A DNA stretch of 64,000 nucleotides from Mustelus asterias (Eukaryota): the NCBI RefSeq assembly GCF_964213995.1, contig NC_135811.1:44144001-44208000 (forward strand), in the 5' to 3' direction. Below the pieces are notes generated by a model. That model saw only the letters and a program-made list of their open reading frames with translations. It had not been told where the DNA came from and made no database searches. Shown piece by piece: positions 808 to 54,800 of this stretch. The position numbers and the translations under genes are program-made. Positions within the stretch are counted from its first letter, which is position 1; each line of letters opens with the position of its first letter.

Positions 808-1500
808 ATTTGATTTATTATTGTCACATGTATTAGTATACAGTGAAAAGGATTATTTCTTACATGCTATACAATCAAAGCATACCGTTCACAGAGAAGG
901 AAAGGAGAGAGTGCAGAATCTAGTGTCACAGTGTAGAGAAAGGTCAACTTAATGCGAAGTAGGTCCATTCAAAAGTCTGATGACAGCAGGGAAGAAGCTG
1001 TTCTTGAGTCAGCTGGGACGTGACCTCAGACTTTTGTATCTTTTTCCTGACAAAAGAAGGTGGAAGAGAGAATGTCCGGGGTGCATGGGGTCTTTAATTA
1101 TGCTGGCTGCTTTCCAAGGCAGCGGGAAATGTAGGCAGAGTCAATGGATGGGAGGCTGGTTTGTTTGATGGATTGGGCTACTTTCATGACCTTTTGTAAT
1201 TTCTTGCGGTCTTGGGCAGAGCAGGAGCCATACCAAGCTGTGATACAACCAGAAAGAATGCTTTCTATGGTGCATCTGTAAAAGTTGGAGAGAGTAGTAG
1301 CTGACATGCCAAATTTCCTTAATCTTCTGAGAAAGTAGAGGCGTTGGTGGGCTTTCTTAACTATAGTGTTGGCATGGGGGGACCAGGACAGGTTGTTGGT
1401 GATCTGGACACCTAAAAACCTGAAGCTCTCGACCCTTTCTACTTCATCCCTATTGATGTAGACAAGGGCACATTCTCCACTATACTTCCTGAAGTCGATG
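808..1500 (-). mobile_element. 5'-truncated Rex1/Babar-like LINE (RT C-terminus + 3'UTR) inserted into an HE1 SINE
   Basis: ORF 1098-1541 reads VVIDFRK...FRFLGVQITNNLSW...KKAHQRLYFLRRLRKFG...YRCTIESIL; HE1 pieces flank it (~770-807 and ~1505-1692). Confidence 0.75.
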
Positions 1501-3239
1501 ACTACGTGCAGCTCAGGTGGATTGGCCATGCTAAATTGCACCTTATTGTCCTAAAATGGGATTAGCCATGGTAAGTGTGTGGGGTTACAGGAATAGGGCG
1601 GGGAAGAGGGCTTGGGCAAGATACTCTGTCGGAGAGTCGATGCAGACTCGATTGGCCGAATGGCCTCTTCTGCATTGTAGGGATCCTATGATTTCCCCAG
1701 AAACCTGTTCTCCCTTCTGGGAGCAGGCGACATGAAGAAGATTTTCTCCAGCTTCACCCAGCCCCTTCTCCATCATCAGATCAGCATGGTGCCATTTAGA
1801 CATTCCAGTGAAACATTGGAACTGGCACAACTGAACCGTTCTGCTGGCATGACACACCTACCCAAGCTGAGCACGAAAAGAATTTGGATACAAAGTAGCT
1901 CTCCTTTAACACAAGAAGAAAATGGATTGCGGACCAAACAATGGACCATGGAAACAGTCTTAAGTATTAAGAAGCACATTGCATCTTAATAAGATCGTTT
2001 ACAAAAGGCATGCGAGAAATCAGCATCAATATAGACCCCCAATGGAAATATGCATGCAGCAATTCTTCATGGTGGATTAGAAGCTCCTGGCTCCCCCTAA
2101 AAAATTCCCAATTGCCATTCACCTGAAACCAACCAGAGCAATGATATTCCTCAGGGTTACTTTCATGCTGCTGATTTAGGAGTGTTTCACCAATTGTTAA
2201 TCAAAGTGACGGGTGGAAGCAAGATGGATAAAGGAATTGCCCAGTAACCCACATCATTGAGTAATTGGTATCATCATCCTTGCAGTGTTGGATGAATATA
2301 ATCAAAGATGAAATGAAGAAAATAATGTCAATGTATATGAACAATCAAAACATTGGAAGGCAATGTTAGTGAGTGGAAAGATCCCAGGTTCAATTATAAA
2401 TCTCACTGCGGTAGAGTTTCTGCTCAGGACACAATCAGTAATCTGGACAGGTGCAAATTCCACTTCATGTTGTCAGTTTTCAGAAGCAAAGTTATGGCTC
2501 AGATTTTCTCCCAAACTTAACTGTATAATCTCAAACATAAAGGCCACTTCTTTGTAGTCGCTGGAAATTGGTGCAGAGCTGATCATATGGAAATTACAAT
2601 TTCCATATGATTAGCAGGCCTGGGACCTTATTCTCTGGGCCCACTAATGTCCACACCGCACCCCCTTCCCCCCCCAACCACCCCCGGGAGTGGTTCCCAC
2701 CAGCGGGGTTTACAACTGCTCCCCACTAACAGGAAACCGACGTCCTCACCCCGCTGGTGGGGATAGAGGTCATTGAGGCCCCTCCCCCAGGAGGTCAGGG
2801 GCAAGGGGGGTGCCCCTTGGGCACTGCACAAGAGGCAAACGGACAGTGCCAAGGGGGCAGGGTGATCAGTGGGAGGTACCCACTGCCACTCTGCAAGTGG
2901 GATCGGAGGGGGAAGGAGGGATGAGGACGATTGGGGCAGTAGGCCAAGGATGGGGGGTGGGGGGCTAGTACGCATGCGTCAATATCCATACTGACAGATC
3001 GGCGCATCGCAGTGACCTGCTCAGCACTATGCCGCCAGCCTCTCGGGCAGGAATAGGCCCCGACCCCTGCTTTTCAGAGTGAATTGCCCTGAGGCACTCT
3101 GCATTGCTAGAGCGTCAGAGATTTGTTCAGGTAAATACGCCCAAAGAATGGATGGGAAATACCCCGTTTCCCCACCCGTTGGGCACTTAGTTTTATTCTG
3201 GGAGAATCCCGGCCAAAATATTCCACCAACCAAAATCTA

Positions 3240-34232: not shown

Positions 34233-34357
34233 AAACCTCAGCACTTGCACTCCATTATGGACCTACCATATATTAAGTTGATCTTTCTCTACACCCTAGC
34301 TATGACAGTATCACTATATTTTGCACTCTCTCCTTTCCTTCTCCCCTATATACTCTA

Positions 34358-34673
34358 TGTGGTGAACCATCGTTGGTTACCACTGTGGGGTTATTCCAAT
34401 GTTACTGTTGGGTTAGGGTGTTGCCACTGTGGGGGTTGTTATAATGTTGTTGGGTTAGGGTGTTTACACTTTGGGATTAATATACCTGTGGTGGATGTTG
34501 TTATGGCACATCCCGGTCGGGCCCCGCCTCCTGGGGAGAGGTATAAGACCCTCTGCTCAGGCGGGACCCCTCCAGTCTGGATTGGTGTACTCGTGTTAGA
34601 TAGTTCCATTGTTTGTCAATAAAAGCCTTCAATCGCTGAAGCCTTGTACCTCGTGCTTGATTGTCGCGCATCA
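34358..34673 (+). repeat. 5' LTR (316 bp); TATAAG at 34542, AATAAA at 34618-34623
   Basis: Differs from the 3' LTR at 3 positions by my manual comparison. Confidence 0.95.
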
Positions 34674-34674
34674 A

Positions 34675-34689
34675 TTTTATTGACAAACA
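34675..34689 (+). promoter_or_regulatory. PBS-position sequence complementary to the element's own LTR (candidate self-priming site)
   Basis: TTTTATTGACAAACA is the exact reverse complement of TGTTTGTCAATAAAA (34610-34624); no TGG-type tRNA PBS. Confidence 0.7.
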
Positions 34690-34714
34690 CAAAACTCTCG
34701 ACAGTAAAGAGAGT

Positions 34715-35227
34715 ATGGAGCAAATGCTGAAACCAGAGCACCTGACGCTGGACCCACGTGCGGTCGGTGCCTCTAACACCTTCGACCACTGGCTGAAGTG
34801 TTTCGAGGACTACCTGGCGGCCTCTGCAGCAGTTACTACGGACGACGACAAACTCCAGGTCCTCCACGCGAGGGTAAGCGACACGGTCTATCTTGCGATT
34901 CGTGCGGCCACCACTTACCCGAGGGCCATCGAGCTCTTGAAGAAACGATACACGAGACCACCCAACGAGATTCACGCTTGTTACCTCCTCGCTACACGAC
35001 GTCGGCAGTCGGGCGAAACCATGGAGGACTACGCCAATGAGCTCTTGCAGCTTGCCAGGGGCTGCGACTGCAAAGCTGTGTCGGCTGAGCAGTATATGTA
35101 CGACCTCGCCCGAGATGCGTTTGTAGCAGGGGTAGGGTCCTCGTACATCCGGCTTAAGCTATTGGAGAAAGGGAACCTCAACTTGACCCAAGCGATGGAG
35201 ATGGCTGAGATGCTGGAGGCAGCGTGA
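34715..35227 (+). CDS. gag: Gypsy Gag, N-terminal (capsid-like) part; ends at a frameshift
   Basis: ATG at 34715, MEQMLKPEHLTLDP...RRQSGETMEDY..L..LARGC..RDAFVAG; TGA at 35225-35227 overlaps the GTG of the next frame. Confidence 0.85.
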   Translation: MEQMLKPEHLTLDPRAVGASNTFDHWLKCFEDYLAASAAVTTDDDKLQVLHARVSDTVYLAIRAATTYPRAIELLKKRYTRPPNEIHACYLLATRRRQSGETMEDYANELLQLARGCDCKAVSAEQYMYDLARDAFVAGVGSSYIRLKLLEKGNLNLTQAMEMAEMLEAA

Positions 35228-38200
35228 AAAGCTTGGCTCTGTACCCCGAAGACCACGTGGAGACAACGTGGCAGGAGCTAGCACAAATCCCTCCTCGCCC
35301 CACGGGCTCGCGCTCCCATATCGACCCGACGACGGCGGCAGCTCCAGGCGGCCAGCGATGCTATTTTTGCGGAGGAGCCAAGCATCCACGGCAACAGTGT
35401 CCAGCAAAAACGGCGACCTGCAGTCAGTGCGGTAAAAAGCGGCACTATGCTAAAGTCTGCAGGTCGAAGCCCAAGAACGGCAGTGCAGCCTGTGACCCTC
35501 CAGAGCGGAGACAATCTCCTTCGGCGTCGCAGTACCCGCGAGGCCCGACCACGTGCGAATCCAGGACGGCGCCATCGTGGCTGACGGAGGAGGAGGATGA
35601 CCACCAGGATTCGCTACGCTTGGCGCCCTCACCCACGTGCGATTCATGGGGGCGGCCATCATGGTCGACGACGACCAGGAGCGACCAGCAGGGGTCCTCA
35701 GTATCAACCTCGGCTGCCTGCAGTGACATCCAAGGGCCAACGGTGGCGTCGATCTCTCTGGACCAGACAAAGCATCACAGGCTTGACTGTTCGATGATGA
35801 ACATCAAGGTAAATGGTCGTACTGTGTATTGTCTGTTTGACAGTGGGAGCACCGAGAGTTTTATTCACCCTGACACTGCAAAAAGGTGTGGACTCCGGGT
35901 TCTACCTGCCAAACAGACAATTTCTATGGCATCACGGTCCCGGTCTGTACCGATCCAAGGACGTTGTATGGTAACCCTAGAGGTGCAGGGCACAATTTAC
36001 GAGCGATACAGGCTCCTTGTGTTGCCGCACCTTTGCGCGCCAATTCTCCTCGGACTAAACTTTATGGTCCACATGAAGAGTGTGATCCTACAGTACGGTG
36101 GGCCACTCCCTTCGCTGGCAGTAGGGAATCAGCCGCAGCCTCCAAATTGCCCAAAGCGCCCCGCATGCAATCTTTCCACACTAAAGATCACCACACCTTC
36201 TTTATTTAAGAATCTGGTACCAGGTTGCAAGCCCATCGCTACTAAAAGTAGGCGTTACAGCGCTGAAGACCGGATCTTTATCAGATCTGAGGTTCAGCGG
36301 CTCCTCAAAGAAGGGATCATACAGCACAGTGCTAGTCCGTGGAGAGCGCAGGTCGTGGTGGTTAAAAGCGGGAACAAACCCCGGATGGTCATCGACTACA
36401 GTCAGACCATTAACCATTATACGCAGCTGGATGCGTATCCTCTCCCGCGCATATCTGATATGGTCAATCAGATTGCGCAGTACCGGGTGTTCTCCACCAT
36501 AGACCTTAAGTCCGCCTACCACCAACTCCCCATCCGCCCAGAGGACCGACAATACACGGCTTTTGAGGCAGATGGTCGTCTATATCAGTTTCTTAGGGTT
36601 CCATTTGGTGTCACCAATGGGGTCTCGGTCTTCCAGCGTGCTATGGACCGAATGGTGGACCAGAACGGGTTGCGGGCTACCTTCCCGTACCTGGATAACG
36701 TCACCATCTGCGGCCATGACCAGCAGGACCATGACACGAATCTCCAAAACTTTCTGCGCACTGCATCTCGCCTGAATCTGACCTATAACAGGGAGAAGTG
36801 TGTATTCCGTACGCGCAGGTTAGCTATCCTTGGATACGTGGTGGAAAACGGGGTCATCGGCCCTGATCCAGACCGTATGCGCCCCCTTACTGAACTTCCC
36901 TTGCCCGCTAGCGCAAAAGCACTGAGGAGATGCCTCGGCTTCTTTTCTTATTATGCGCAGTGGGTCCCCAACTACGCGGACAAAGCCCGTCCGCTCATCA
37001 AGTCCACGACCTTCCCACTCACGCCGGAGGCCCAATTGGCCTTCAAGGCTTTGAAAAGCGACATTGCGAAAGCCACGATGCACGCGGTGGATGAATCCAT
37101 CCCTTTTCAGGTGGAAAGTGATGCATCGGATTTCGCCCTGGCCGCCACACTAAACCAGGCAGGCAGGCCCGTCGCGTTTTTTTCCCGCACCCTTCAAGGT
37201 CCCGAAATTCGGCATTCAGCGGTGGAGAAGGAGGCTCAGGCCATTGTGGAGGCCATCAGACACTGGCGCCATTATCTGGCGGGGAAGCGGTTCACCCTGA
37301 TCACGGATCAACGATCCGTGGCGTTTATGTTCAGTAATACGCAGAGGGGCAAGATCAAGAATGATAAGATCTTGCGGTGGAGAATTGAGCTCTCCACCTA
37401 TAATTACGATATTATGTATCGTCCAGGGAAGCTCAATGAGCCCTCGGATGCCCTCTCGCGCGGAACATGCGCTATCATGCAGGAGGACCGCTTGAAGGCC
37501 CTCCACAATAACCTGTGCCATCCTGGAGTCACTCGACTCTACCACTTCATAAAAGCCCGCAACCTGCCCTACTCGGTGGAGGATGTCAGGTCAGTAACGA
37601 GAAGTTGTCGGATTTGCGCGGAATGCAAACCGCACTTTTATCGACCGGACCGGGCACAATTGGTCAAGGCCACTCGCCCCTTCGAGAGGCTGAGTGTGGA
37701 TTTTAAGGGCCCCCTTCCCTCAACAGACCGGAATGTCTATTTTCTCAATATCATAGATGAATACTCCCGGTTCCCGTTTGTTGTCCCCTGTGCGGACACG
37801 TCGACTGCCACAGTGATTAAGGCATTCAGTGATCTTTTTACCCTGTTCGGGTACCCCTGCTACATACATAGCGACAGGGGCTCGTCGTTCATGAGTAACG
37901 ACTTGAGGCAATTCCTGCTCTCATACGGGATTGCCTCTAGTAGAACCACGAGCTACAACCCTAGGGGTAACGGACAGGTGGAGAGGGAGAATGCTACAGT
38001 CTGGAAGGCTGTCCTATTGGCGCTGAAGTCCAGGGGCCTTCCAGTCTCCCGTTGGCAGGAGGTCCTTCCAAATGCGCTTCATTCCATTCGCTCCCTCCTG
38101 TGTACGGCAACCAATGCTACTCCCCACGAGAGGATGTTCTCATTCCCTCGGAAGTCGTCCTCGGGGATCTCCTTACCAGCCTGGTTGACGTACTCAGGAC

Positions 38201-38688
38201 CCGTCCTTCTGCGGCGACATGTGAGGGCCCGCAAGTCCGACCCCTTGGTCGAACCGGTCCAATTCCTCCACGCCAACCCTCAGTATGCCTATGTGGCATA
38301 TCCTGACGGGCGAGAGGACACGGTCTCGATTCGAGACCTGGCGCCCGCAGGGGACGTAGCAACTCCTGTCGCTCCTATACCCCCTGTCACGAACCCCCTT
38401 TCACTTCTTTCTTCCCCAGACGTGGCGCGGTCAGCACCGGGACCAGTGCATAACAGTTATACTCCCATGTACAGCTTGCCTGAGACTCGGAGATCGGCGC
38501 CACCACAGAAGGTACCAGGATCCCCTGCACCACCGCCTCACCAGGGTCAACCGGCCCGGGAGTCCTCGAGGGGACAGCCGGACGCTGTTTTGGAGAGAAC
38601 GCCACCGCAAGCACCTGCTCCGGTGTCGCAACCGGTGTTGAGGAGATCACAGCGACGGTGCGGTCCTCCAGACCGTCTGGACTTGTGA
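35224..38688 (+). CDS. pol: Gypsy Gag C-terminus + Pol: two CCHC zinc knuckles, aspartic protease, RT, RNase H, integrase
   Basis: CYFCGGAKHPRQQC and CSQCGKKRHYAKVC; LFDSGS; DLKSAYHQ, VPFG, YLDN; SDAS..EKE..TDQ..DALSR; H..H..CRIC; SVDF..SDRG..QVER; no chromodomain seen. Confidence 0.95.
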   Translation: MKSLALYPEDHVETTWQELAQIPPRPTGSRSHIDPTTAAAPGGQRCYFCGGAKHPRQQCPAKTATCSQCGKKRHYAKVCRSKPKNGSAACDPPERRQSPSASQYPRGPTTCESRTAPSWLTEEEDDHQDSLRLAPSPTCDSWGRPSWSTTTRSDQQGSSVSTSAACSDIQGPTVASISLDQTKHHRLDCSMMNIKVNGRTVYCLFDSGSTESFIHPDTAKRCGLRVLPAKQTISMASRSRSVPIQGRCMVTLEVQGTIYERYRLLVLPHLCAPILLGLNFMVHMKSVILQYGGPLPSLAVGNQPQPPNCPKRPACNLSTLKITTPSLFKNLVPGCKPIATKSRRYSAEDRIFIRSEVQRLLKEGIIQHSASPWRAQVVVVKSGNKPRMVIDYSQTINHYTQLDAYPLPRISDMVNQIAQYRVFSTIDLKSAYHQLPIRPEDRQYTAFEADGRLYQFLRVPFGVTNGVSVFQRAMDRMVDQNGLRATFPYLDNVTICGHDQQDHDTNLQNFLRTASRLNLTYNREKCVFRTRRLAILGYVVENGVIGPDPDRMRPLTELPLPASAKALRRCLGFFSYYAQWVPNYADKARPLIKSTTFPLTPEAQLAFKALKSDIAKATMHAVDESIPFQVESDASDFALAATLNQAGRPVAFFSRTLQGPEIRHSAVEKEAQAIVEAIRHWRHYLAGKRFTLITDQRSVAFMFSNTQRGKIKNDKILRWRIELSTYNYDIMYRPGKLNEPSDALSRGTCAIMQEDRLKALHNNLCHPGVTRLYHFIKARNLPYSVEDVRSVTRSCRICAECKPHFYRPDRAQLVKATRPFERLSVDFKGPLPSTDRNVYFLNIIDEYSRFPFVVPCADTSTATVIKAFSDLFTLFGYPCYIHSDRGSSFMSNDLRQFLLSYGIASSRTTSYNPRGNGQVERENATVWKAVLLALKSRGLPVSRWQEVLPNALHSIRSLLCTATNATPHERMFSFPRKSSSGISLPAWLTYSGPVLLRRHVRARKSDPLVEPVQFLHANPQYAYVAYPDGREDTVSIRDLAPAGDVATPVAPIPPVTNPLSLLSSPDVARSAPGPVHNSYTPMYSLPETRRSAPPQKVPGSPAPPPHQGQPARESSRGQPDAVLERTPPQAPAPVSQPVLRRSQRRCGPPDRLDL

Positions 38689-38737
38689 ATTTTGTATATA
38701 TGTGATCTGTTGTCGCACCCCGCCGGCCTTTGTTTTT

Positions 38738-38751
38738 AAAGGAGGGATGAA
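38738..38751 (+). promoter_or_regulatory. Polypurine tract
   Basis: AAAGGAGGGATGAA immediately before the 3' LTR. Confidence 0.85.
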
Positions 38752-39067
38752 TGTGGTGAACCATCGTTGGTTACCACTGTGGGGTTATTCCAATGTTACT
38801 GTTGGGTTAGGGTGTTGCCACTGTGGGGGTTGTTATAATGTTGTTGGGTTAGGGTGTTTACACTGTGGGATTAATATACCTGTGGTGGATGATGTTATGG
38901 CACATCCCGGTCGGGCCCCGCCTCCTGGGGAGAGGTATAAGACCCTCTGCTCAGGCGGGACCCCTCCAGTCTGGATTGGTGTACTCGTGTTAGATAGTTC
39001 CATTGTTTGTCAATAAAAGCCTTCAATCGCTGAAGCCTTGTACCTCGTGCTTGATTGTTGCGCATCA
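38752..39067 (+). repeat. 3' LTR (316 bp)
   Basis: TG...CA, about 99% identical to the 5' LTR. Confidence 0.95.
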
Positions 39068-40059
39068 CTCTATGAACGGTATGTTTTGCCTGTACAGCAC
39101 ACAAGAACAATACTTTTCACTATATACCAATACATGTGACAATAAATCAAATCAAATCTCTCGTTTCCCTTGGTGTTTTATTGGGAGTGTGCTAGATCAC
39201 TCTTGTGTCTGGTGTAGCCATTTTCTTAACCAAAATGCACCTGGCTCTTCTCATTTTCTGTCCTTGGTCACTTGTGTTTTCTTGTATTTACAGCTTTAAA
39301 TTGGGTTGCTCCTTTAAGACTGAGCGTGCTAATTTTTTTTTACTCAGGCTGTCTCTATAGCCACCAGTTCCTTTGTTGTGAGATTATTACGCTTTTCTGC
39401 TTTTGGCAGGCCCTCCAGCAATCATGGACCTTCTGTTTTAATCTTTCAGGACAGAAGCATTTATTTTCTGGGCAATTCTTTCCTTTTTTTACTTTCTCTG
39501 CAGGTTCTTTGAACTTTGGGAGACTTGGCGGACGTACTTTTATCCCAGTTGTTTTAAAACTTTTTCTTTAAAGTTTCAAAACAGCAACAATTCTTTTCCA
39601 GGAGATTATTTCTGGGTTTTTTTGCTGCTGTTGGTGTTTACACTCTTTGTGAATGTCCCTCCTTTGGGAGTTTGGTGGGCACATGGTCCAATCAAAGCCC
39701 TTCTTTCTAAACTTAAAGTGACAGCACTTTTCTCCTCTGTGCTGCCTGCCCTTTGTTTATTTTTCAGATATCTTCCTTTTTTTCTCAGTAGTTTCTTCTT
39801 TATTCTGCAGTGTTCCTTCTCGCTCTGTCTGCCGTTTTTTTTAACTCGCAGCTGTCTTCCAGTTTCACTATGGATATGATGAGCCGTGGACCTGCCACAT
39901 TTTCAATGCAAGCACAGCTTCAGTTTTCACAAGTTTTGCTCAACATCTCGGGAACTGTGCAGTGTTCTTCACACCGTGTCACTCAAGAGTCTTGCAACTT
40001 TTGTAACTTTGCTCACCGTCTTGTGATCTAAATAAGCGTCTTAACTCAGCCTCAATCAT

Positions 40060-41648: not shown

Positions 41649-43669
41649 CTAAGGAGAGGAAAGTTTCATGAACACTTTGATGTGAGGTTGCACCCTGAAA
41701 GTTAAACCAGCTTAGTTAAAGTTGACCTTACATTTTACACCCTGAAGCTAATCTTTATAAATCACAACAGCAGAAGATACCCTCAAATTAAATTACAAAT
41801 GAAAATGCCCTAAGGAACAGGTCCGCAGGTTAGGTTTGGAAGTAATGGGGCGGGATTTTCCGTTCGCCCTCGCCCCAAGACCGGAAAATCTGTGACGGGA
41901 AGATCACATTTTGAGATTATCAGCCAGCAATGGAATTTTGGTTCACACCCTCGCTGGGCACGAACCAGATTAGCATACATGAATATATTCATTTAAATAT
42001 TCAAAATCGGCTTTAAGTGGAATTCTCCGGACTCCTTAAATTCTCCCGACCGCTAGCGTGACTTGAAGCCAGAGGGAATCACTCCTGGTCTTCAGAAACG
42101 GAAACCAGACACAACCACCATGTTGGGGGAGGGGGGGGAGGCTAGGAGGCCATTGTAGGCCTTGGGTGGTCAGGGATATGGCTGGGCAGCTCACTGGTAC
42201 CCTGGCAATGCCAGGTTGGACTCGCCAGGTTGACACTGCCAAGGGGCGGGGCCCTGATGGGGGCAGAGCCTATAAGTGAGTCCATAGCAGATGCTCACAT
42301 ATGTCGTAGTGGGGGCTTTTGATGCCGGTGATGGGGCGATGGGGGTGGCCTTGAAGGTTAAACAGCGATTGGAACACCTTCTAAAAAGGACTCTCAGAAG
42401 CAGGCCTTGCTGGTGTCTTTAGGCCACACTTATTTCGCTCACAGCACAAGCCCCCTCCAAAAAAATGACAAAGTGGGGGGGGGGAGGGGTGGATTACAGT
42501 TGGGACCGTGCCGACTGATCCAATGGCAATCGCACCCAATTCCCATCGAAAATAACACTTTGTCTTTTTTTTGGAGAATTGTGCTCACAGTTTCGACCAA
42601 TTTCTCTCAGGCTGTGTTTGGTGACATCACAACTGCAGGGGGCGCACTTTGCGCACATGTATGAGTGTTGGTAACGTCAAAGCCAGGACTGCAGAACTCT
42701 GACTTTAAAAACGTAGCAGATCTGGAGAAAAATTGAAGCAGGTTTGTGGATTTTTCTCTGGATTAGAGTGTCACGTTAGTCCCAGTAAAAGCATCCAAAA
42801 TGGCAGCCAGTAAGCTCTGTTTACCGGGTTACACCTTGCTGTATATAATTTCCCAGACTGCTAACATGCGCTTACGCTACAATTCCCTGCATCGGAATTT
42901 TGCAAAAGCTGATTGTGTGGAACAGTTTGAGATTGCCAAGTGTTTAGTGAAATGCAGAGTTATTTTGGTAGCCTGAAATAATTGAGCATCACTATTGCAG
43001 CTCACAACAGGAGCGCCACACCGCGAGGATTCAGGAGAGGGCCAGTGAGGACACGGGCAATAAGGTAACAGGGCAGTGGAGAAAGGACGCATCAGAGAGC
43101 ATGTGCAGGATTTTTCCAAAACACGACTAAGTGCCATTCTGGGTGAGAAAGCTGGTGTGCCGGCATGAATCGGATCGTAGCTTTCCCACACATAGGCCCT
43201 GATTTTACCGGCATGTCCGCCCGAGGCTCGTAATATCACACCCGAAGCCAATGGGGAATGTTGTTCTGTGAGCCTCACCTGCCCCGATTTCGGGGCAGCC
43301 ATGCTGGTAAAATTAGAGCCTTAGTCATATTTTTGGGAGAGGGGCAAGTCTGGCAACAGTTCTGAGAGGGGCTTCACAGAGATCAGGCACCGTTTTTAAA
43401 GGATGCCCCAATCTCAAAGTGAAATTGAAGGCCCCCCCCCCACCCCCACCCCCACCCCCACCCCACCCCCCACACAGATATTGGGGACTGCTCCTCTCCC
43501 ATTATTGAAGGAATATTTCCCCAAAACCCTCCCCAACAAAAATCACCAGAATTGCGGCATTGGGGTTCTCCCAATAGGTCCCCCCTCATATCTTCCCCCC
43601 CCCCCACATATCCCTCCCTTCATGTCCCCCCCTTCATGACCCTTCTGCTTTGTGAACCCTCCCCCACTC

Positions 43670-43757
43670 ATGCCCCACCCCCACTCAGGCTCCACCCCCA
43701 CTCAGGCTCCACCCTCACTCAGGCTCCACCCCCACTCAGGCCCCACCCCCACTCAGG
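43670..43757. repeat. ~19-nt minisatellite (CCACCCCCACTCAGGC(T/C)), ~4.5 copies
   Basis: Directly visible. Confidence 0.8.
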
Positions 43758-43994
43758 ACAGGAACCAGATTATGTCCGGGAGCGGTGGGTGGGTGGATTC
43801 CAGTGGGGTTTCGCGCCTGTGCTGAATGCACTAAATCCCTCACCTGCGATTCTCCGGCCCCGCTGCGTTCTAACGCAATCAGCACTGGATGCGATGCAAC
43901 CAGAAAATCGCAGCCCATGACATTTTGGTGTTTATTTTGATGTCAGCAAATGCAGGGACACAAACTTGTACTGGAACTGGCTGATAGGGACTTC

Positions 43995-45139: not shown

Positions 45140-46870
45140 ATCTAACTACTCTGTATCGGTATTCACCAAGGCGAAGAACATGATGGATGCTGAGGTCAGT
45201 GATAGATGTGTGAACGCTCTGGAGAACGTCAATATATCGAAGGAGGAAGTGTTGAGTATCCTAAATTGCATTAAGGTAGACAAGTCCCTGGGGCTGGATG
45301 GGATCTGCGGTTGGCAAGGGAAGAAATAGCTGGGGCCTTAACAGATATCTTCACATCCTCTTTGACCACAGACAAGGTTCCAGAGGACTGGAGGATAGCC
45401 AATGTTGTTCCCATGTTTAAGAAAAGAAGCAGAGATAATCCAGGAAACTATAGGCCGGTGAGCTTGACATCAGTGGTGAAAAGCTTTTGGAGAAAATATT
45501 GAGGGACAGGATACATGCACATTTGGAGGAAAATGGACTAGTTAGTGACAGGCAGCATGGCTTTGTATGGGGAAGGTCATGCATGTATCACCAACTTGAT
45601 TAAGTTGTTTGAAGAGTTGACAAAGATAATTGATGAGGGAAGGGCTGTGGATGTAGCTTATGTAGACTTTAGTAAGAGGTTTGACAAGGTCCCACATGGC
45701 AGATTGGTACAAAAACTAAAATCACATGGGATTCAGGGTGGGCTGGCTATATGGATACAGAACTGGCTTGGGTATAGAACAGTCCACGCCGGCATCTCCA
45801 CATCTTGGGTATAGAAGACAGAGAGTAGTGGTGGAAGGGTGATTTTTCAGAATGGAGATCTGTAGCTAGTGGTGTTCTGCAGGGATCAGTGCTGGGACCT
45901 CTGTTGTTGTATATATAAATGATTTGGAGGAAAATGTGGGTGGTCTGAATAGTAAGTTTGGGGATGACATGAAGATTTGTGGAATTGCTGATAGTGCCGT
46001 GGATTGTCAGAGGATACAACAGGATAGATTGGAGACTTAGGCACAGAAATGGCAGATGGAGTTTAATCTGGACAAATGCGAGGTGTGTTTTGGAGGATTA
46101 AATTTAGGTGTGAATTACACTGTAAATGGCAGAACTCTTAGGAAAATTAACATACAGAGGGATCTGGGTGTGCAGGTCCACAATTCCCTAAACGTGGCAA
46201 CACAGGTAGCCAAGGTGATTAAGAAGGCATATGGCATGCTTACCTTCATCATCCAGGGCATTGAGTACAAGAGTTGGGAAATCATGTTGCAGCTATGTAA
46301 AACCTTGTTCAGGCCGCATTTGGAGTATTGTGTGCAGTTCTGGTCACCACACTACCAGAAGGACGTGGAAGCTTTGGAGAGAGCTCTGCAAAGAAGGTTC
46401 ACCAGGATGTTGCCTGGTCTCGAGGGTGTTGGCTATGAGGAGAGGTGGAATAAACTAGGATTGTTTTCACTGGAAAGACAGAGGCTGAGGGGAAACCTGA
46501 TAGAGGTTTACAAAATTATGGGAGGCATAGACAGGGTGGATAGTCAGAGGCTTTTTCCCAGGGTTGAAGAGTTGATTACAAGTGGGCACAGGTTCAAGGT
46601 GAGAGGAGGAAAGTTTAAGGGAGATGTGCGAGGGAAGATTTTCACACAGAGCGGAGTGGATGCCTGGAACGCACTGCCAGAGGAGGTGGTGGAAGCAGGC
46701 ACATTAGCAACATTTAAAGGCATCTAGATGGGTACATGAATAGGGAGAGAATAGAGAGATATGGACTGAGTAAGGGCAGGGTTTTTTTTTAGTTCAGTTC
46801 GGGCATCATGATCGGCACAGGCTTGGAGGGTCGTAGGGCCTGTTCCTGTGCTGTACTTTTCTTTGTTCTT
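45140..46870 (+). mobile_element. CR1/HER1 LINE, 5'-truncated, RT domain frameshifted
   Basis: PEDWRIANVVP.FKK..NPGNYRPVSLTSVV; DFSKRFDKVPH; RPHLEYCVQFWSP. Confidence 0.9.
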
Positions 46871-48904: not shown

Positions 48905-49850
48905 GAAAGGAAACAAGAACTAGAGGACACAGCCTCAAAATAAGGGGGAGTCAGTTTAGAACATAGAACAGTATAGCACAGAACAGGCCCTTCAGCCCAC
49001 GGTGTTGTGCCGAGCTTTATCTGAAACCAAGATCAAGCTATCCCACTCTCTATCATCCTGGTGTGCTCCATGTGCCTATCCAATAACCGCTTAAATGTTC
49101 CTAAAGTGTCTGACTCCACTATCACTGCAGGCAGTCCATTCCACACCCCAACCACTCTCTGCGTAAAGAACCTACCTCTGATATCCTTCCTATATCTCCC
49201 ACCATGAACCCTATAGTTATGCCCCCTTGTAATAGCTCCATCCACCCGAGGAAATAGTCTTTGAACGTTCACTCTATCTATCCCCTTCATCATTTTATAA
49301 ACCTCTATTAAGTCTCCCCTCAGCCTCCTCCGCTCCAGAGAGAACAGCCCTAGCTCCCTCAACCTTTCCTCATAAGACCTACCCTCCAAACCAGGCAGCA
49401 TCCTGGTAAATCTCCTCTGCACTCTTTCCAGCGCTTCCCCACCCTTCTTATAGTGAGGTGACCAGAACTGCACACAATATTCCAAATGTGGTCTCACCAA
49501 GGTCCTGTACAGTTGCAGCATAACCCCACGGCTCTCAAACTCCAACCCCCTGTTAATAAAAGCTAAAGGACGGAGTTGACAGTTTAGGACAGAGTTGAGG
49601 AGGAACTTCTTCTCTCAGAGGGTAGTGAATCTCTGGAATTCTCTGCCCATTGAAGCAGTGGAGGCTACCTCGTTAAATATGTTTAAGTCACAGGTAGATA
49701 GATTTCTGATCAATAAGGGAATTAAGGGTTATGGTGAGCGGGCGGGTAAGTGGAACTAAACCACTATCAGATCAGCCATGATCTTATTGAATGGCGGGGC
49801 AGTCTCGAGGGGCTAGATGGCCTACTCCTGCTCCTATTTCTTATGTTCTT
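48905..49850. mobile_element. CR1 3' end (+) interrupted by a younger CR1 (~48961-49562, -)
   Basis: ORF 49033-49545 is an open CR1 ORF2 C-terminus; CAGTTTAG repeated on both sides of the insert. Confidence 0.85.
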
Positions 49851-53017: not shown

Positions 53018-53214
53018 CTGTGTGAAAACATGAAATAGATTTCAACATGTAGCAAAGCTATAAAATCTTGTTGTTAATTATGCACGTTTCCATTTTTGCC
53101 CACATTTTAATAACTTGGCCCATTTGTAAATTTACCAGAGACAGTGTCTGTGAGAGAGGGATATAACGGAGGAATTAAAGGTTCAGAGAAAGAAGTGGGA
53201 AGTTATGCTTATAC

Positions 53215-54800
53215 ACTACCTCATGTCTCGCAAATTTGATTGAGTTTTTTGAAGGGGTAACCAAGAAACAGAAACAGAAACAGAAACCCTACAGTGCAGA
53301 AGGAGGCCATTCGTCCCATCGAGTCTGCACCGACCACAATCCCACCCAGGCCCTACCCCCACATATTTACCCACTAATCCCACTAACCTACGCATCACAG
53401 GACTCTAAGGGGCAATTTTTAACCTGGCCAATCAACCTAACCCGCACATCTTTGGACTGTGGGAGGAAACCGGAGCACCCGGAGGAAACCCATGCAGACA
53501 CGAGGAGAATGTGCAAACTCCACACAGACAGTGACCCGAGCCGGGAATCGAACCCGGGACCCTGGAGCTGTGAAGCAGCAGTGCTAACCACTGTGGGCAG
53601 TGCAGTTGATGTTGTCTACATGGACTTTAGCAAGGCCTTTGACAAGGTACCGCATGGTAGGTTGTTGCATAAAGTTAAATCTCACGGGATCCAGGGTGAG
53701 GTATCTAAATGGACACAAAATTGGCTTCTTGACAGAAGCCAGAGGGTGGTTGTAGAGAGTTGTTTCTCAAACTGGAGGCCTGTGACCAGCGGTGTGCCTC
53801 AGGGATCAGTGCTGGGCCCACTGTTATTTGTCATTTATATCAATGATTTGGATGAGAATATAGGGTTAGTAAGTTTGCAGATGACACCAAGATTGGTGAC
53901 ATAGTGGACAGTGAAGAAAGTTATCTCCAATTGCAATGGGATCTTGATCAATTGGGCCAGTGGGCAGACGAATGGCAGGTGGATTTTAATTTAGACAAAT
54001 GCGAGGTGATGCACTTTGGTAGATTGAACCAGGGCAGGACTTACTCAGTTAATGGTAGGGCAATGGGGAGAGTTACAGCACAAAGAGATCTAGGGGTACA
54101 TGTTCATAGCTCCTTGAAAGTGGAGTCACAGGTGGACAGAGTGGTGAAGAAGGCATTCAGCATGCTTGGTTTCATTGGTCAGAACATTGAATACAGGAGT
54201 TGGGACGTCTTGTTGAAGTTGTACAAGACATTGATAAGGCCACACTTGGAATACTGTGTGCAATTCTGGTCACCCTATTATAGAAAGGATATTATTAAAC
54301 TAGAAAGAGTGCAGAAAAGATTTACTAGAATGCTACTGGGACTTGAGGGATTGAGTTATAAGGAGAGGCTGGGTAGACTGGGACTTTGTTCTCTGGAGCA
54401 TAGGAGGCTGAGGGGTGACTTATAGAGGTCTATAAAATAATGAGGGGAATAGACAAGGTAAATAGTCAATATCTTTTCCCAAAGGTAGGGGAGTCTAAAA
54501 CTAGAGGGCATAGGTTTAAGGTGAGAGGGGAGAGATACAAAAGTGTCCAGAGGGACAATTTTTTCACAGAGGGTGGTGAGTGTCTGGAACAAGCTGCCAG
54601 AGGTAGTAGTAGAGGCGGGTATAATTTTATCTTTTAAAAAGCATTTAGATAGTTACATGGGTACGATGAGTATAGAGGGATATGGGCCAAATGCGGGCAA
54701 TTGGGATTAGCTTAGGGGGTTTCAAAAAAAAAGGGGCAGCATGGACAGGTTGGGCTGAGGGGCCTGTTTCCATGCTGTAAACCTCTATGACTCTATGTGA
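53215..54800 (+). mobile_element. CR1/HER1 LINE with a young HE1 SINE (~53266-53595, -) inserted
   Basis: [45 protein letters not shown]; the HE1 is nearly identical to the copy at ~16965-17318. Confidence 0.9.

What the first reader, a model, noticed from the sequence alone, without database searches (positions are those of the whole stretch)
34610..34714. Young shark Gypsy element with a self-complementary PBS covering its own poly(A) signal (candidate tRNA-independent self-priming / poly(A) switch)
Seen: one base after the 5' LTR end (CA, 34673) there is no TGG tRNA PBS. Instead TTTTATTGACAAACA (34675-34689) is the perfect 15-nt reverse complement of LTR bases 34610-34624, which include AATAAA. 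In this duplex the 3' end of the LTR strand (34624) pairs with 34675, the geometry needed to extend into U5. Small stems lie nearby: CTTCA/TGAAG (34627-34641), TTGAT/ATCAA at the U5 end (34657-34674), and ACTCTC/GAGAGT just before the gag ATG. The leader is only 41 nt. Established: S. pombe Tf1 self-primes by annealing the 5' end of its RNA to the PBS followed by cleavage, and HIV-1 occludes its 5' poly(A) signal in a hairpin. Inference: one duplex could do both jobs here, because it can form in cis only at the 5' LTR. Unlike Tf1, the pairing segment seems ~40 nt downstream of the TATA-predicted start, and the element lacks a chromodomain. Self-primed animal Gypsy groups may already be catalogued; I cannot check.
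Basis: partly seen in the sequence, partly recalled or inferred. Interest (0 to 1): 0.8.

Follow-up and report, generated by a model that had tools for sequence, protein, structure and literature searches.

The report
Self-priming Gypsy retrotransposon of sharks
A young, abundant shark jumping gene and its relatives across animals have no tRNA docking site; that spot pairs perfectly with a stretch of the element's own terminal repeat while the letters change from family to family, so the group likely starts copying itself with a piece of its own RNA, and the same pairing may also hide its upstream poly(A) signal.

Summary
Observation confirmed. The window holds a young Ty3/Gypsy element (34358-39067; 316-bp LTRs differing at 3 sites; 5-bp target duplication). 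One base after the 5' LTR there is no TGG; 34675-34689 is the exact reverse complement of LTR 34610-34624, which contains the LTR's only AATAAA (0 of 20,000 shuffles exceed 10 bp). The pairing is conserved in register, with compensatory changes, across three shark families and invertebrate-type relatives (13 of 13 pairs in 21 of 27 metagenome loci; no G-U among the core pairs of 33 aligned types). A site that tracks the element's own LTR cannot be read by a fixed host tRNA. Best reading: Tf1-like self-priming in a non-chromovirus animal lineage (about 70%); cleavage and priming are inferred, with no RNA data. In sharks a conserved TATA/initiator predicts a start 36 nt upstream of the arm, unlike Tf1. 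The poly(A)-switch role is plausible by folding but not obligatory: 7 of 18 distant relatives lack AATAAA/ATTAAA in the arm. Ten literature searches found no description outside Tf1/sushi, but Repbase Reports were not searchable. This scan had already reported the same signature in other genomes (four earlier findings).

The parts
34353..34357 (+). Target-site duplication, left copy (CTCTA; right copy 39068-39072)
34358..34673 (+). 5' LTR, 316 bp, TG...CA
34542..34547 (+). TATA box (predicted promoter)
   Evidence: kept 76-79 nt upstream of AATAAA in 11 of 11 shark subfamily copies examined
34572..34578 (+). Initiator-like motif; predicted transcription start at 34574, 36 nt upstream of the pairing arm
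   Evidence: pyrimidine-A-G-pyrimidine motif 32-33 nt after TATA in 10 of 11 shark copies; not mapped on RNA
34610..34624 (+). Pairing arm in the R region (candidate self-primer); its 3' end would lie at 34623 or 34624
34618..34623 (+). Only AATAAA of the LTR, inside the arm (predicted poly(A) signal)
34625..34641 (+). Short helix starting directly after the arm; a helix in this position recurs in most distant relatives (weak individually)
34675..34689 (+). Primer-site position: exact complement of the arm, no TGG
34715..35227 (+). gag, 5' part; in this copy the frame is broken near 35225
35209..38688 (+). Open frame with two CCHC knuckles, protease, RT, RNase H, integrase; no chromodomain
35809..38474 (+). 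Predicted GT...AG intron whose removal would give a gag-only mRNA
   Evidence: 6 of 6 non-chimeric annotated Gag models of the shark families end in Leu-Ala-stop just after this donor; sites located
38740..38751 (+). Polypurine tract
38752..39067 (+). 3' LTR, with the second copy of the arm at 39004-39018 and no local partner

Best explanation
This is a young Ty3/Gypsy retrotransposon whose primer site is the exact complement of a 13-15 nt stretch of its own LTR, and it likely starts minus-strand DNA synthesis with that stretch of its own RNA instead of a tRNA. Shown: the element's anatomy, the duplex, its register 1-2 nt after the LTR end, and its compensatory conservation across shark families and distant animal relatives. 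Inferred: the nascent 5' end folds back so that the R-region arm pairs with the primer site; a cut just 3' of the arm (by the element's RNase H, by analogy with Tf1) frees a 3'-OH on an A at 34623/34624; RT extends it through U5 and the remaining ~20 nt of R, then jumps to the 3' R. Inferred and weaker: in sharks the primer would keep an unpaired 5' leader of about 36 nt, and the duplex would also hide the 5' AAUAAA until it is cut or while Pol II reads through.
For: No TGG; 15 of 15 pairs; 0 of 20,000 shuffles above 10 bp. Shark loci from four searches: 13 of 13 pairs in 85 of 109, 12 of 13 in 20. Metagenome relatives (RT/RNase H 45-65% identical): 13 of 13 in 21 of 27, against 0 of 270 shuffles. 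In 33 aligned arm types: 137 cells with both sides changed against 45 +/- 5 in shuffles, 90.7% paired against 32-47% when slid; in the 13 core pairs no G-U cell and 8 unpaired of 429 (the shark rows were chosen for distinct intact arms). Own arm versus own site 12 of 12 in 30 of 35, cross-family in 6 of 1190. In the young family every multi-copy variant shared by both LTRs is matched at the primer site, apart from one of 9 scorable copies of one variant (6 of 6, 8 of 9, 23 of 23). The register after CA is that of a primer site (1 nt in 121 of 136 and 2 nt in 5 of 136 unselected loci). Precedent: Tf1 (passages of PMC7175516; bioRxiv 10.1101/2022.12.06.519325).
Against: No RNA evidence of start, cut or primer. 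In Tf1 the primer is the first 11 nt of the RNA; here TATA and initiator motifs predict a start 36 nt upstream, so the Tf1 model does not transfer unchanged. The three-duplex 'pretzel' is not evident: several relatives have only 13-22 nt from primer-site start to gag ATG. One of 27 metagenome loci (L176) shows no duplex, and two more have short or imperfect ones (L142, L153). Three single-copy variants shared by both LTRs are not matched at the primer site (L177, L183, L190), so the data do not show direct copying of primer into the site; PMC7472051 (passage) states that Ty1 and Ty3 inherit their primer site rather than copy the primer. Covariation shows that the pair matters, not what for.
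Confidence: 0.7

Rival explanations
1. The primer is the element's own arm sequence but is supplied in trans or from the other end: a short RNA from a solo or 3' LTR (or one ended at the 5' poly(A) site), or the 3' R copy of the genome, anneals to the primer site and is trimmed at the arm's end.
For: The arm lies inside R, so it is present at both RNA ends and in LTR-only transcripts; the family has many LTR copies (2126 exact 15-mers); it would explain why the arm overlaps the poly(A) signal and need not be at the 5' end.
Against: The local 5' arm is only 50 nt away and folds essentially completely once 34685 is transcribed, so it should out-compete other copies; loops of 21-68 nt and a helix stacked next to the arm recur in relatives.
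Confidence: 0.1
2. The duplex is a regulatory structure only: it hides the 5' poly(A) signal (and perhaps tunes gag translation or splicing), and DNA synthesis is primed some other, unseen way.
For: AAUAAA unpaired probability 0.00-0.07 in the 5' context against 0.3-0.9 in the 3' context; AATAAA in the arm in all shark families and AATAAA/ATTAAA in 11 of 18 distant relatives.
Against: 7 of 18 distant relatives keep the duplex without the hexamer in it; 3 of 18 carry a hexamer in the loop. A purely structural stem would not need to start 1-2 nt after the LTR end, and would be expected to accept G-U pairs, as the adjacent small helix does. The leader has no room for another primer site (15-46 nt to ATG in most).
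Confidence: 0.12
3. A host RNA (tRNA half, edited tRNA or other small RNA) primes, and the match to the LTR is secondary.
For: Half-tRNA priming is known in copia lineages (passages of PMC6317226). Only 82 tRNA gene calls of 10 anticodon types were checked.
Against: The site changes at many positions between subfamilies within one genome, always with the LTR, which a fixed host RNA cannot follow; longest exact share with a sampled tRNA was 7 nt in an intron-spanning call and otherwise 5 nt; the complement ends in AAAA, not CCA.
Confidence: 0.04
4. The inverted repeat is a neutral by-product (template switch or DNA hairpin repair) inherited by the family.
For: Copies of the young family are 99% identical, so their agreement is not independent.
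Against: Kept in register with different letters across lineages whose RT differs by 35-55%.
Confidence: 0.02

Closest known systems
Tf1/Tf2 (S. pombe), Tj1 (S. japonicus) and the Tf1/sushi group of self-primed chromoviruses
   Same: Ty3/Gypsy domain order; primer site complementary to the element's own R region instead of a tRNA; arm and site within a short loop across U5 (passages).
   Different: No chromodomain or Tf2-type SH3 domain; arm 13-16 nt in most relatives rather than 11; in sharks predicted to lie 36 nt inside the RNA rather than at its 5' end; arm usually includes the poly(A) hexamer; no evident three-duplex pretzel; very short leader.
Plant TAR copia elements (Houba, Osr-1) and moss Tcn1 clade, predicted self-primers
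   Same: Self-priming predicted from LTR/primer-site complementarity alone (passages of PMC6317226).
   Different: Other superfamily or chromovirus clade, plants; that paper lists tRNA primers for the plant non-chromovirus Gypsy lineages.
HIV-1 5' poly(A) hairpin
   Same: AAUAAA sequestered in a stem near the 5' end of the genome.
   Different: In HIV-1 the hairpin is formed within R/U5 and priming is by tRNA-Lys3 (recalled); here the partner strand is the primer site itself, outside the LTR.
Cigr-1 clade / Mag-related animal Gypsy lineages (lead only)
   Same: Compact element, single gag-pol frame of about 1,200 residues in relatives, two CCHC knuckles, short LTRs; Cigr-1 is listed as a clade present in molluscs and tunicates (passages and supplement rows of PMC6238403). 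The size resemblance to Cigr-1 is recalled, not from a call.
   Different: No reference sequence was available, so clade identity is untested; no priming mode for Cigr-1 was found in the papers seen.

Membership tests
Ty3/Gypsy LTR retrotransposon (Metaviridae) | Direct LTRs TG...CA with target-site duplication and polypurine tract | tested here: met
Ty3/Gypsy LTR retrotransposon (Metaviridae) | Domain order protease-RT-RNase H-integrase, RT closest to Ty3 among solved structures | tested here: met
   (Ty3 E 5e-51, next family 1e-32)
Tf1/sushi group (self-primed chromoviruses) | Primer site complementary to the element's own R region, no tRNA site | tested here: met
Tf1/sushi group (self-primed chromoviruses) | Chromodomain at the integrase C-terminus | tested here: not met
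   none in the window frame, in 12 of 12 relatives scanned, or in the precomputed domains of the 120 listed relatives
Tf1/sushi group (self-primed chromoviruses) | Primer formed by the first nucleotides of the RNA | tested here: inconclusive
   TATA/initiator motifs predict a start 36 nt upstream in sharks; start not mapped on RNA
Tf1/sushi group (self-primed chromoviruses) | Three-duplex 'pretzel' around the primer site | tested here: inconclusive
   consensus fold of 33 types gives only the central helix, but the alignment reached only 16 nt past the site start; a helix next to the arm recurs; leaders are often very short
Tf1/sushi group (self-primed chromoviruses) | RNase H cut at the end of the primer | not testable with these tools
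   needs RNA end mapping or biochemistry
Tf1/sushi group (self-primed chromoviruses) | RT groups with Tf1/sushi in a tree | not tested
   no Tf1 or sushi sequence was available; SH3_Tf2-1-bearing loci of the genome were too decayed to serve
tRNA-primed LTR elements | TGG and complementarity to a tRNA 3' end or half | tested here: not met
   (82 gene calls, 34 distinct, 10 anticodon types only)
tRNA-primed LTR elements | Primer site stable across related families of one host | tested here: not met
Occluded 5' poly(A) signal (HIV-1-type hairpin, recalled) | AAUAAA paired at the 5' LTR and open at the 3' LTR | tested here: met
   prediction only: unpaired 0.00-0.07 versus 0.3-0.9
Occluded 5' poly(A) signal (HIV-1-type hairpin, recalled) | Hexamer inside the stem throughout the lineage | tested here: not met
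   11 of 18 distant relatives with a duplex
Occluded 5' poly(A) signal (HIV-1-type hairpin, recalled) | Stem suppresses 5' polyadenylation in cells | not testable with these tools
   needs 3' end mapping or a reporter
CsRN1 clade | LTR terminal motifs TGTGGYG ... MSYYAMA (PMC3601003 Table 3) | tested here: inconclusive
   5' motif matches, 3' motif does not; relatives start otherwise
Cigr-1 clade / Mag lineage | RT/RNase H grouping with Cigr-1, SURL or Mag | not tested
   no reference sequences; motif look-ups in supplements found nothing

The most novel reading that the evidence does not exclude
A pan-animal, non-chromovirus Gypsy lineage evolved self-priming independently of Tf1, using an internal R-region primer built around the poly(A) hexamer, so that one helix both blocks premature polyadenylation at the 5' LTR and, once cut, starts reverse transcription: a dual-use RNA switch that frees the element from host tRNA supply and tRNA-fragment silencing.
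Probability: 0.3. Interest if true: 0.75.

Novelty: new variant of a known kind. Interest (0 to 1): 0.52.

Why it matters
Self-priming is proven only for Tf1 and is usually treated as a trait of the Tf1/sushi chromoviruses. A large, recently active animal lineage without a chromodomain that keeps the same signature would mean tRNA-free priming arose or survived more widely, bears on the proposal that hairpin priming preceded tRNA priming (passages of PMC3601003), and marks elements that tRNA-fragment silencing of the primer site could not reach (inference). The exact coordinates and many natural variants make the cut site, the RNA start and the poly(A) effect directly testable by RNA end mapping. 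It also explains why primer-site-based annotation would miss such elements. Interest is tempered because the mechanism class is known, function is unshown, and the lineage may already be noted in Repbase.

Tried and rejected
Rfam: nothing near a family threshold. Splicing inside the LTR to build the primer (lead from e1-7811049): not needed, the arm is contiguous in the DNA. Test for direct copying of primer into the site with private variants: inconclusive (0 of 3 single-copy variants matched; expected under either model if both LTR arms derive from the 3' R). Outgroups for the tree: SH3_Tf2-1-bearing loci were decayed, with very long branches; the tree is the quick version and names no clade. 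Clade naming through peptide look-ups in supplements failed. A name I half-recalled for a self-primed Gypsy group returned no paper. Primary Tf1 papers were not held. In one search one shark row (L093) was mis-anchored because its LTR end is mutated; searches give its 15-bp duplex. The ESM Atlas only returned generic Gag clusters.

Full report
What is there. The finding lies at the 5' end of a complete LTR retrotransposon, 34358-39067. The LTRs are 316 bp, TG...CA, differ at 3 sites, and are flanked by a 5-bp target duplication; a purine tract precedes the 3' LTR. The long frame 35209-38688 has protease, RT, RNase H and integrase in Ty3/Gypsy order and no chromodomain; its RT/RNase H is closest to Ty3 among solved structures. 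gag starts at 34715 and in this copy is broken near 35225. Annotated proteins of the shark Mustelus asterias match at 59-95%, and two of them match this genome at 100%. The family is young and large: the 40 best copies are 99-100% identical over 301 nt, and the 15-mer occurs 2126 times against 21 for the reversed control; 25 arm/primer-site pairs among the first 100 listed suggest roughly 500 such 5' ends (extrapolation).

The observation. One A follows the LTR end; 34675-34689 is the exact reverse complement of 34610-34624, which includes the LTR's only AATAAA. In 20,000 shuffled LTRs the best duplex with this site was 10 bp, once. The small stems and the 41-nt leader are as described, but the leader stem is not conserved.

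Covariation in the shark. Two older families (gag about 59% and 70% identical) keep the duplex with different letters, and their subfamilies differ at several paired positions, each time on both sides. Over the 109 loci that had enough upstream sequence (1 of 110 dropped; a few may be the same copy found twice), 85 have 13 of 13 Watson-Crick pairs, 20 have 12 (one of them, L055, a chance match in a copy lacking the arm), and 4 have fewer, three of them lacking the junction. In the young family I searched three arm positions for variants and fetched 60 places of the 151 found. Variants present in both LTRs and shared by several copies are matched at the primer site (6 of 6, 8 of 9, 23 of 23 scorable copies); single-copy variants in both LTRs are not (L177, L183, and L190, the exception above); variants in the 5' LTR only are not matched (6 of 6), as expected for changes after insertion.

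Distant relatives. Full-length relatives of about 1,200 residues occur in crustaceans, cnidarians, echinoderms and insects (227 hits, 120 listed), without chromodomain. A metagenome scan confirmed 606 stretches and returned 66 loci; 27 had the gag start and at least 150 nt upstream. Of these, 21 have 13 of 13 pairs, 3 have 12, 1 has 11, 2 have 10, against none of 270 shuffles at 13; L153 has a 10-bp exact duplex in the right register and L176 none. RT/RNase H identity to the window is 45-65% and the loci spread over many branches of a quick tree together with the named invertebrate proteins; some loci are close kin, so the number of independent lineages is about a dozen. An alignment of 33 arm types (15 shark, chosen for distinct intact arms; 18 metagenome, duplicates and L176 left out) gives 137 cells changed on both sides against 45 +/- 5 in shuffles, 90.7% paired against 32-47% for slid partners, and no G-U cell in the 13 core pairs. 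The shuffle control ignores kinship, but the slide and cross-family controls (6 of 1190) point the same way. The duplex starts 1 nt after the LTR-end CA in most loci and 2 nt in a few; the arm almost always ends in a run of A followed by purine-C-C, and a 3-6 bp helix begins right there in most distant relatives, individually weak and tolerant of G-U.

tRNA. The site lacks TGG and its complement ends in AAAA. Among 82 tRNA gene calls (34 distinct, 10 anticodon types; a small sample) the longest exact share was 7 nt in an intron-spanning call and otherwise 5 nt. The stronger argument is that the site changes with the element's LTR inside one host.

How it most likely works. Tf1 pairs its first 11 nt with the primer site and RNase H cuts between nt 11 and 12 (passages of PMC7175516); the group has a chromodomain and a three-duplex structure (passages of bioRxiv 10.1101/2022.12.06.519325; Tj1 in PMC4600332; Tf2 in PMC5341516). 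By analogy the arm here would be cut at its 3' end and extended into U5. This is inferred. Two differences stand out. First, TATA and an initiator-like motif 32-33 nt later are kept in 10 of 11 shark subfamily copies and predict a start at 34574, 36 nt before the arm; either the primer has an unpaired leader, or a second start near 34608 is used. Second, the arm overlaps the poly(A) hexamer. Folding predicts AAUAAA fully paired once 34685 is transcribed and mostly open at the 3' LTR, so occlusion is plausible, but it must win a race against cleavage at a site transcribed some 30-50 nt earlier (inference), and 7 of 18 distant relatives have no AATAAA/ATTAAA in the arm while 3 of 18 have one in the loop. 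I put self-priming in cis at about 0.7 and a real poly(A)-blocking role in sharks at about 0.4. The absence of G-U pairs fits either strict enzyme needs or copying of the primer into the site; PMC7472051 (passage) says retroviruses copy the primer but Ty1 and Ty3 do not, and my private-variant test was inconclusive.

Known or new. Papers seen (passages only) confine self-priming to Tf1/sushi, Tcn1 and plant TAR copia (PMC6317226; PMC3601003; PMC5006619; PMC6934838). Surveys of animal Gypsy clades do not mention primer sites or self-priming in the terms searched (PMC6238403; PMC11117352; PMC12801592; PMC12440569; PMC2836005; PMC2774666). Ten searches listed nothing on a self-primed non-chromovirus animal lineage; subscription journals and Repbase Reports are outside the library, one supplement file was unreadable and one paper's supplements were unavailable, so prior cataloguing is not excluded. 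The clade could not be named; Cigr-1 or another Mag-related group is a recalled lead. It works like Tf1 but is not a member of the Tf1/sushi group by the chromodomain test. Earlier notes of this scan describe the same signature in other genomes; they agree but are not independent support.

Verdict. Real, lineage-wide, probably self-priming; new variant of a known kind; interest 0.52.

Noticed in passing
window 35809-38474: All six non-chimeric annotated Gag models of the shark families (P0002-P0007) end in Leu-Ala-stop just after the protease start, which fits a GT...AG intron removing pol: a likely spliced gag-only mRNA, a way for a single-frame element to make excess Gag. Both sites are present in 52 of 53 scorable fetched copies.
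   Followed up: partly
window ~34704 and protein P0001: An annotated host PRKRIP1 model runs into gag just upstream of its ATG, suggesting a splice acceptor in the short leader that can capture host transcripts.
   Followed up: no
L221 and L235: Copies whose two LTRs carry different arm types; the primer site matches the 5' LTR in L221 and the 3' LTR in L235, consistent with recombination between copies.
   Followed up: partly
L145, L168: Two distant relatives have a 2-nt spacer after the LTR-end CA and an arm that does not end in the usual A run, hinting that the primer's 3' end in the whole lineage may lie at the CA+2 register (34623 in the window).
   Followed up: partly
L176: A relative with gag but no arm/primer-site duplex found upstream; may be a rearranged copy or a sub-lineage with another priming mode.
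   Followed up: no
window 43624-43774: Tandem 17-bp C-rich repeat array.
   Followed up: no
window 1098-1550, 46041-46727, 49033-49614, 53179-54425: Open frames that read like fragments of non-LTR (LINE-type) reverse transcriptases; label from recall, not scanned.
   Followed up: no
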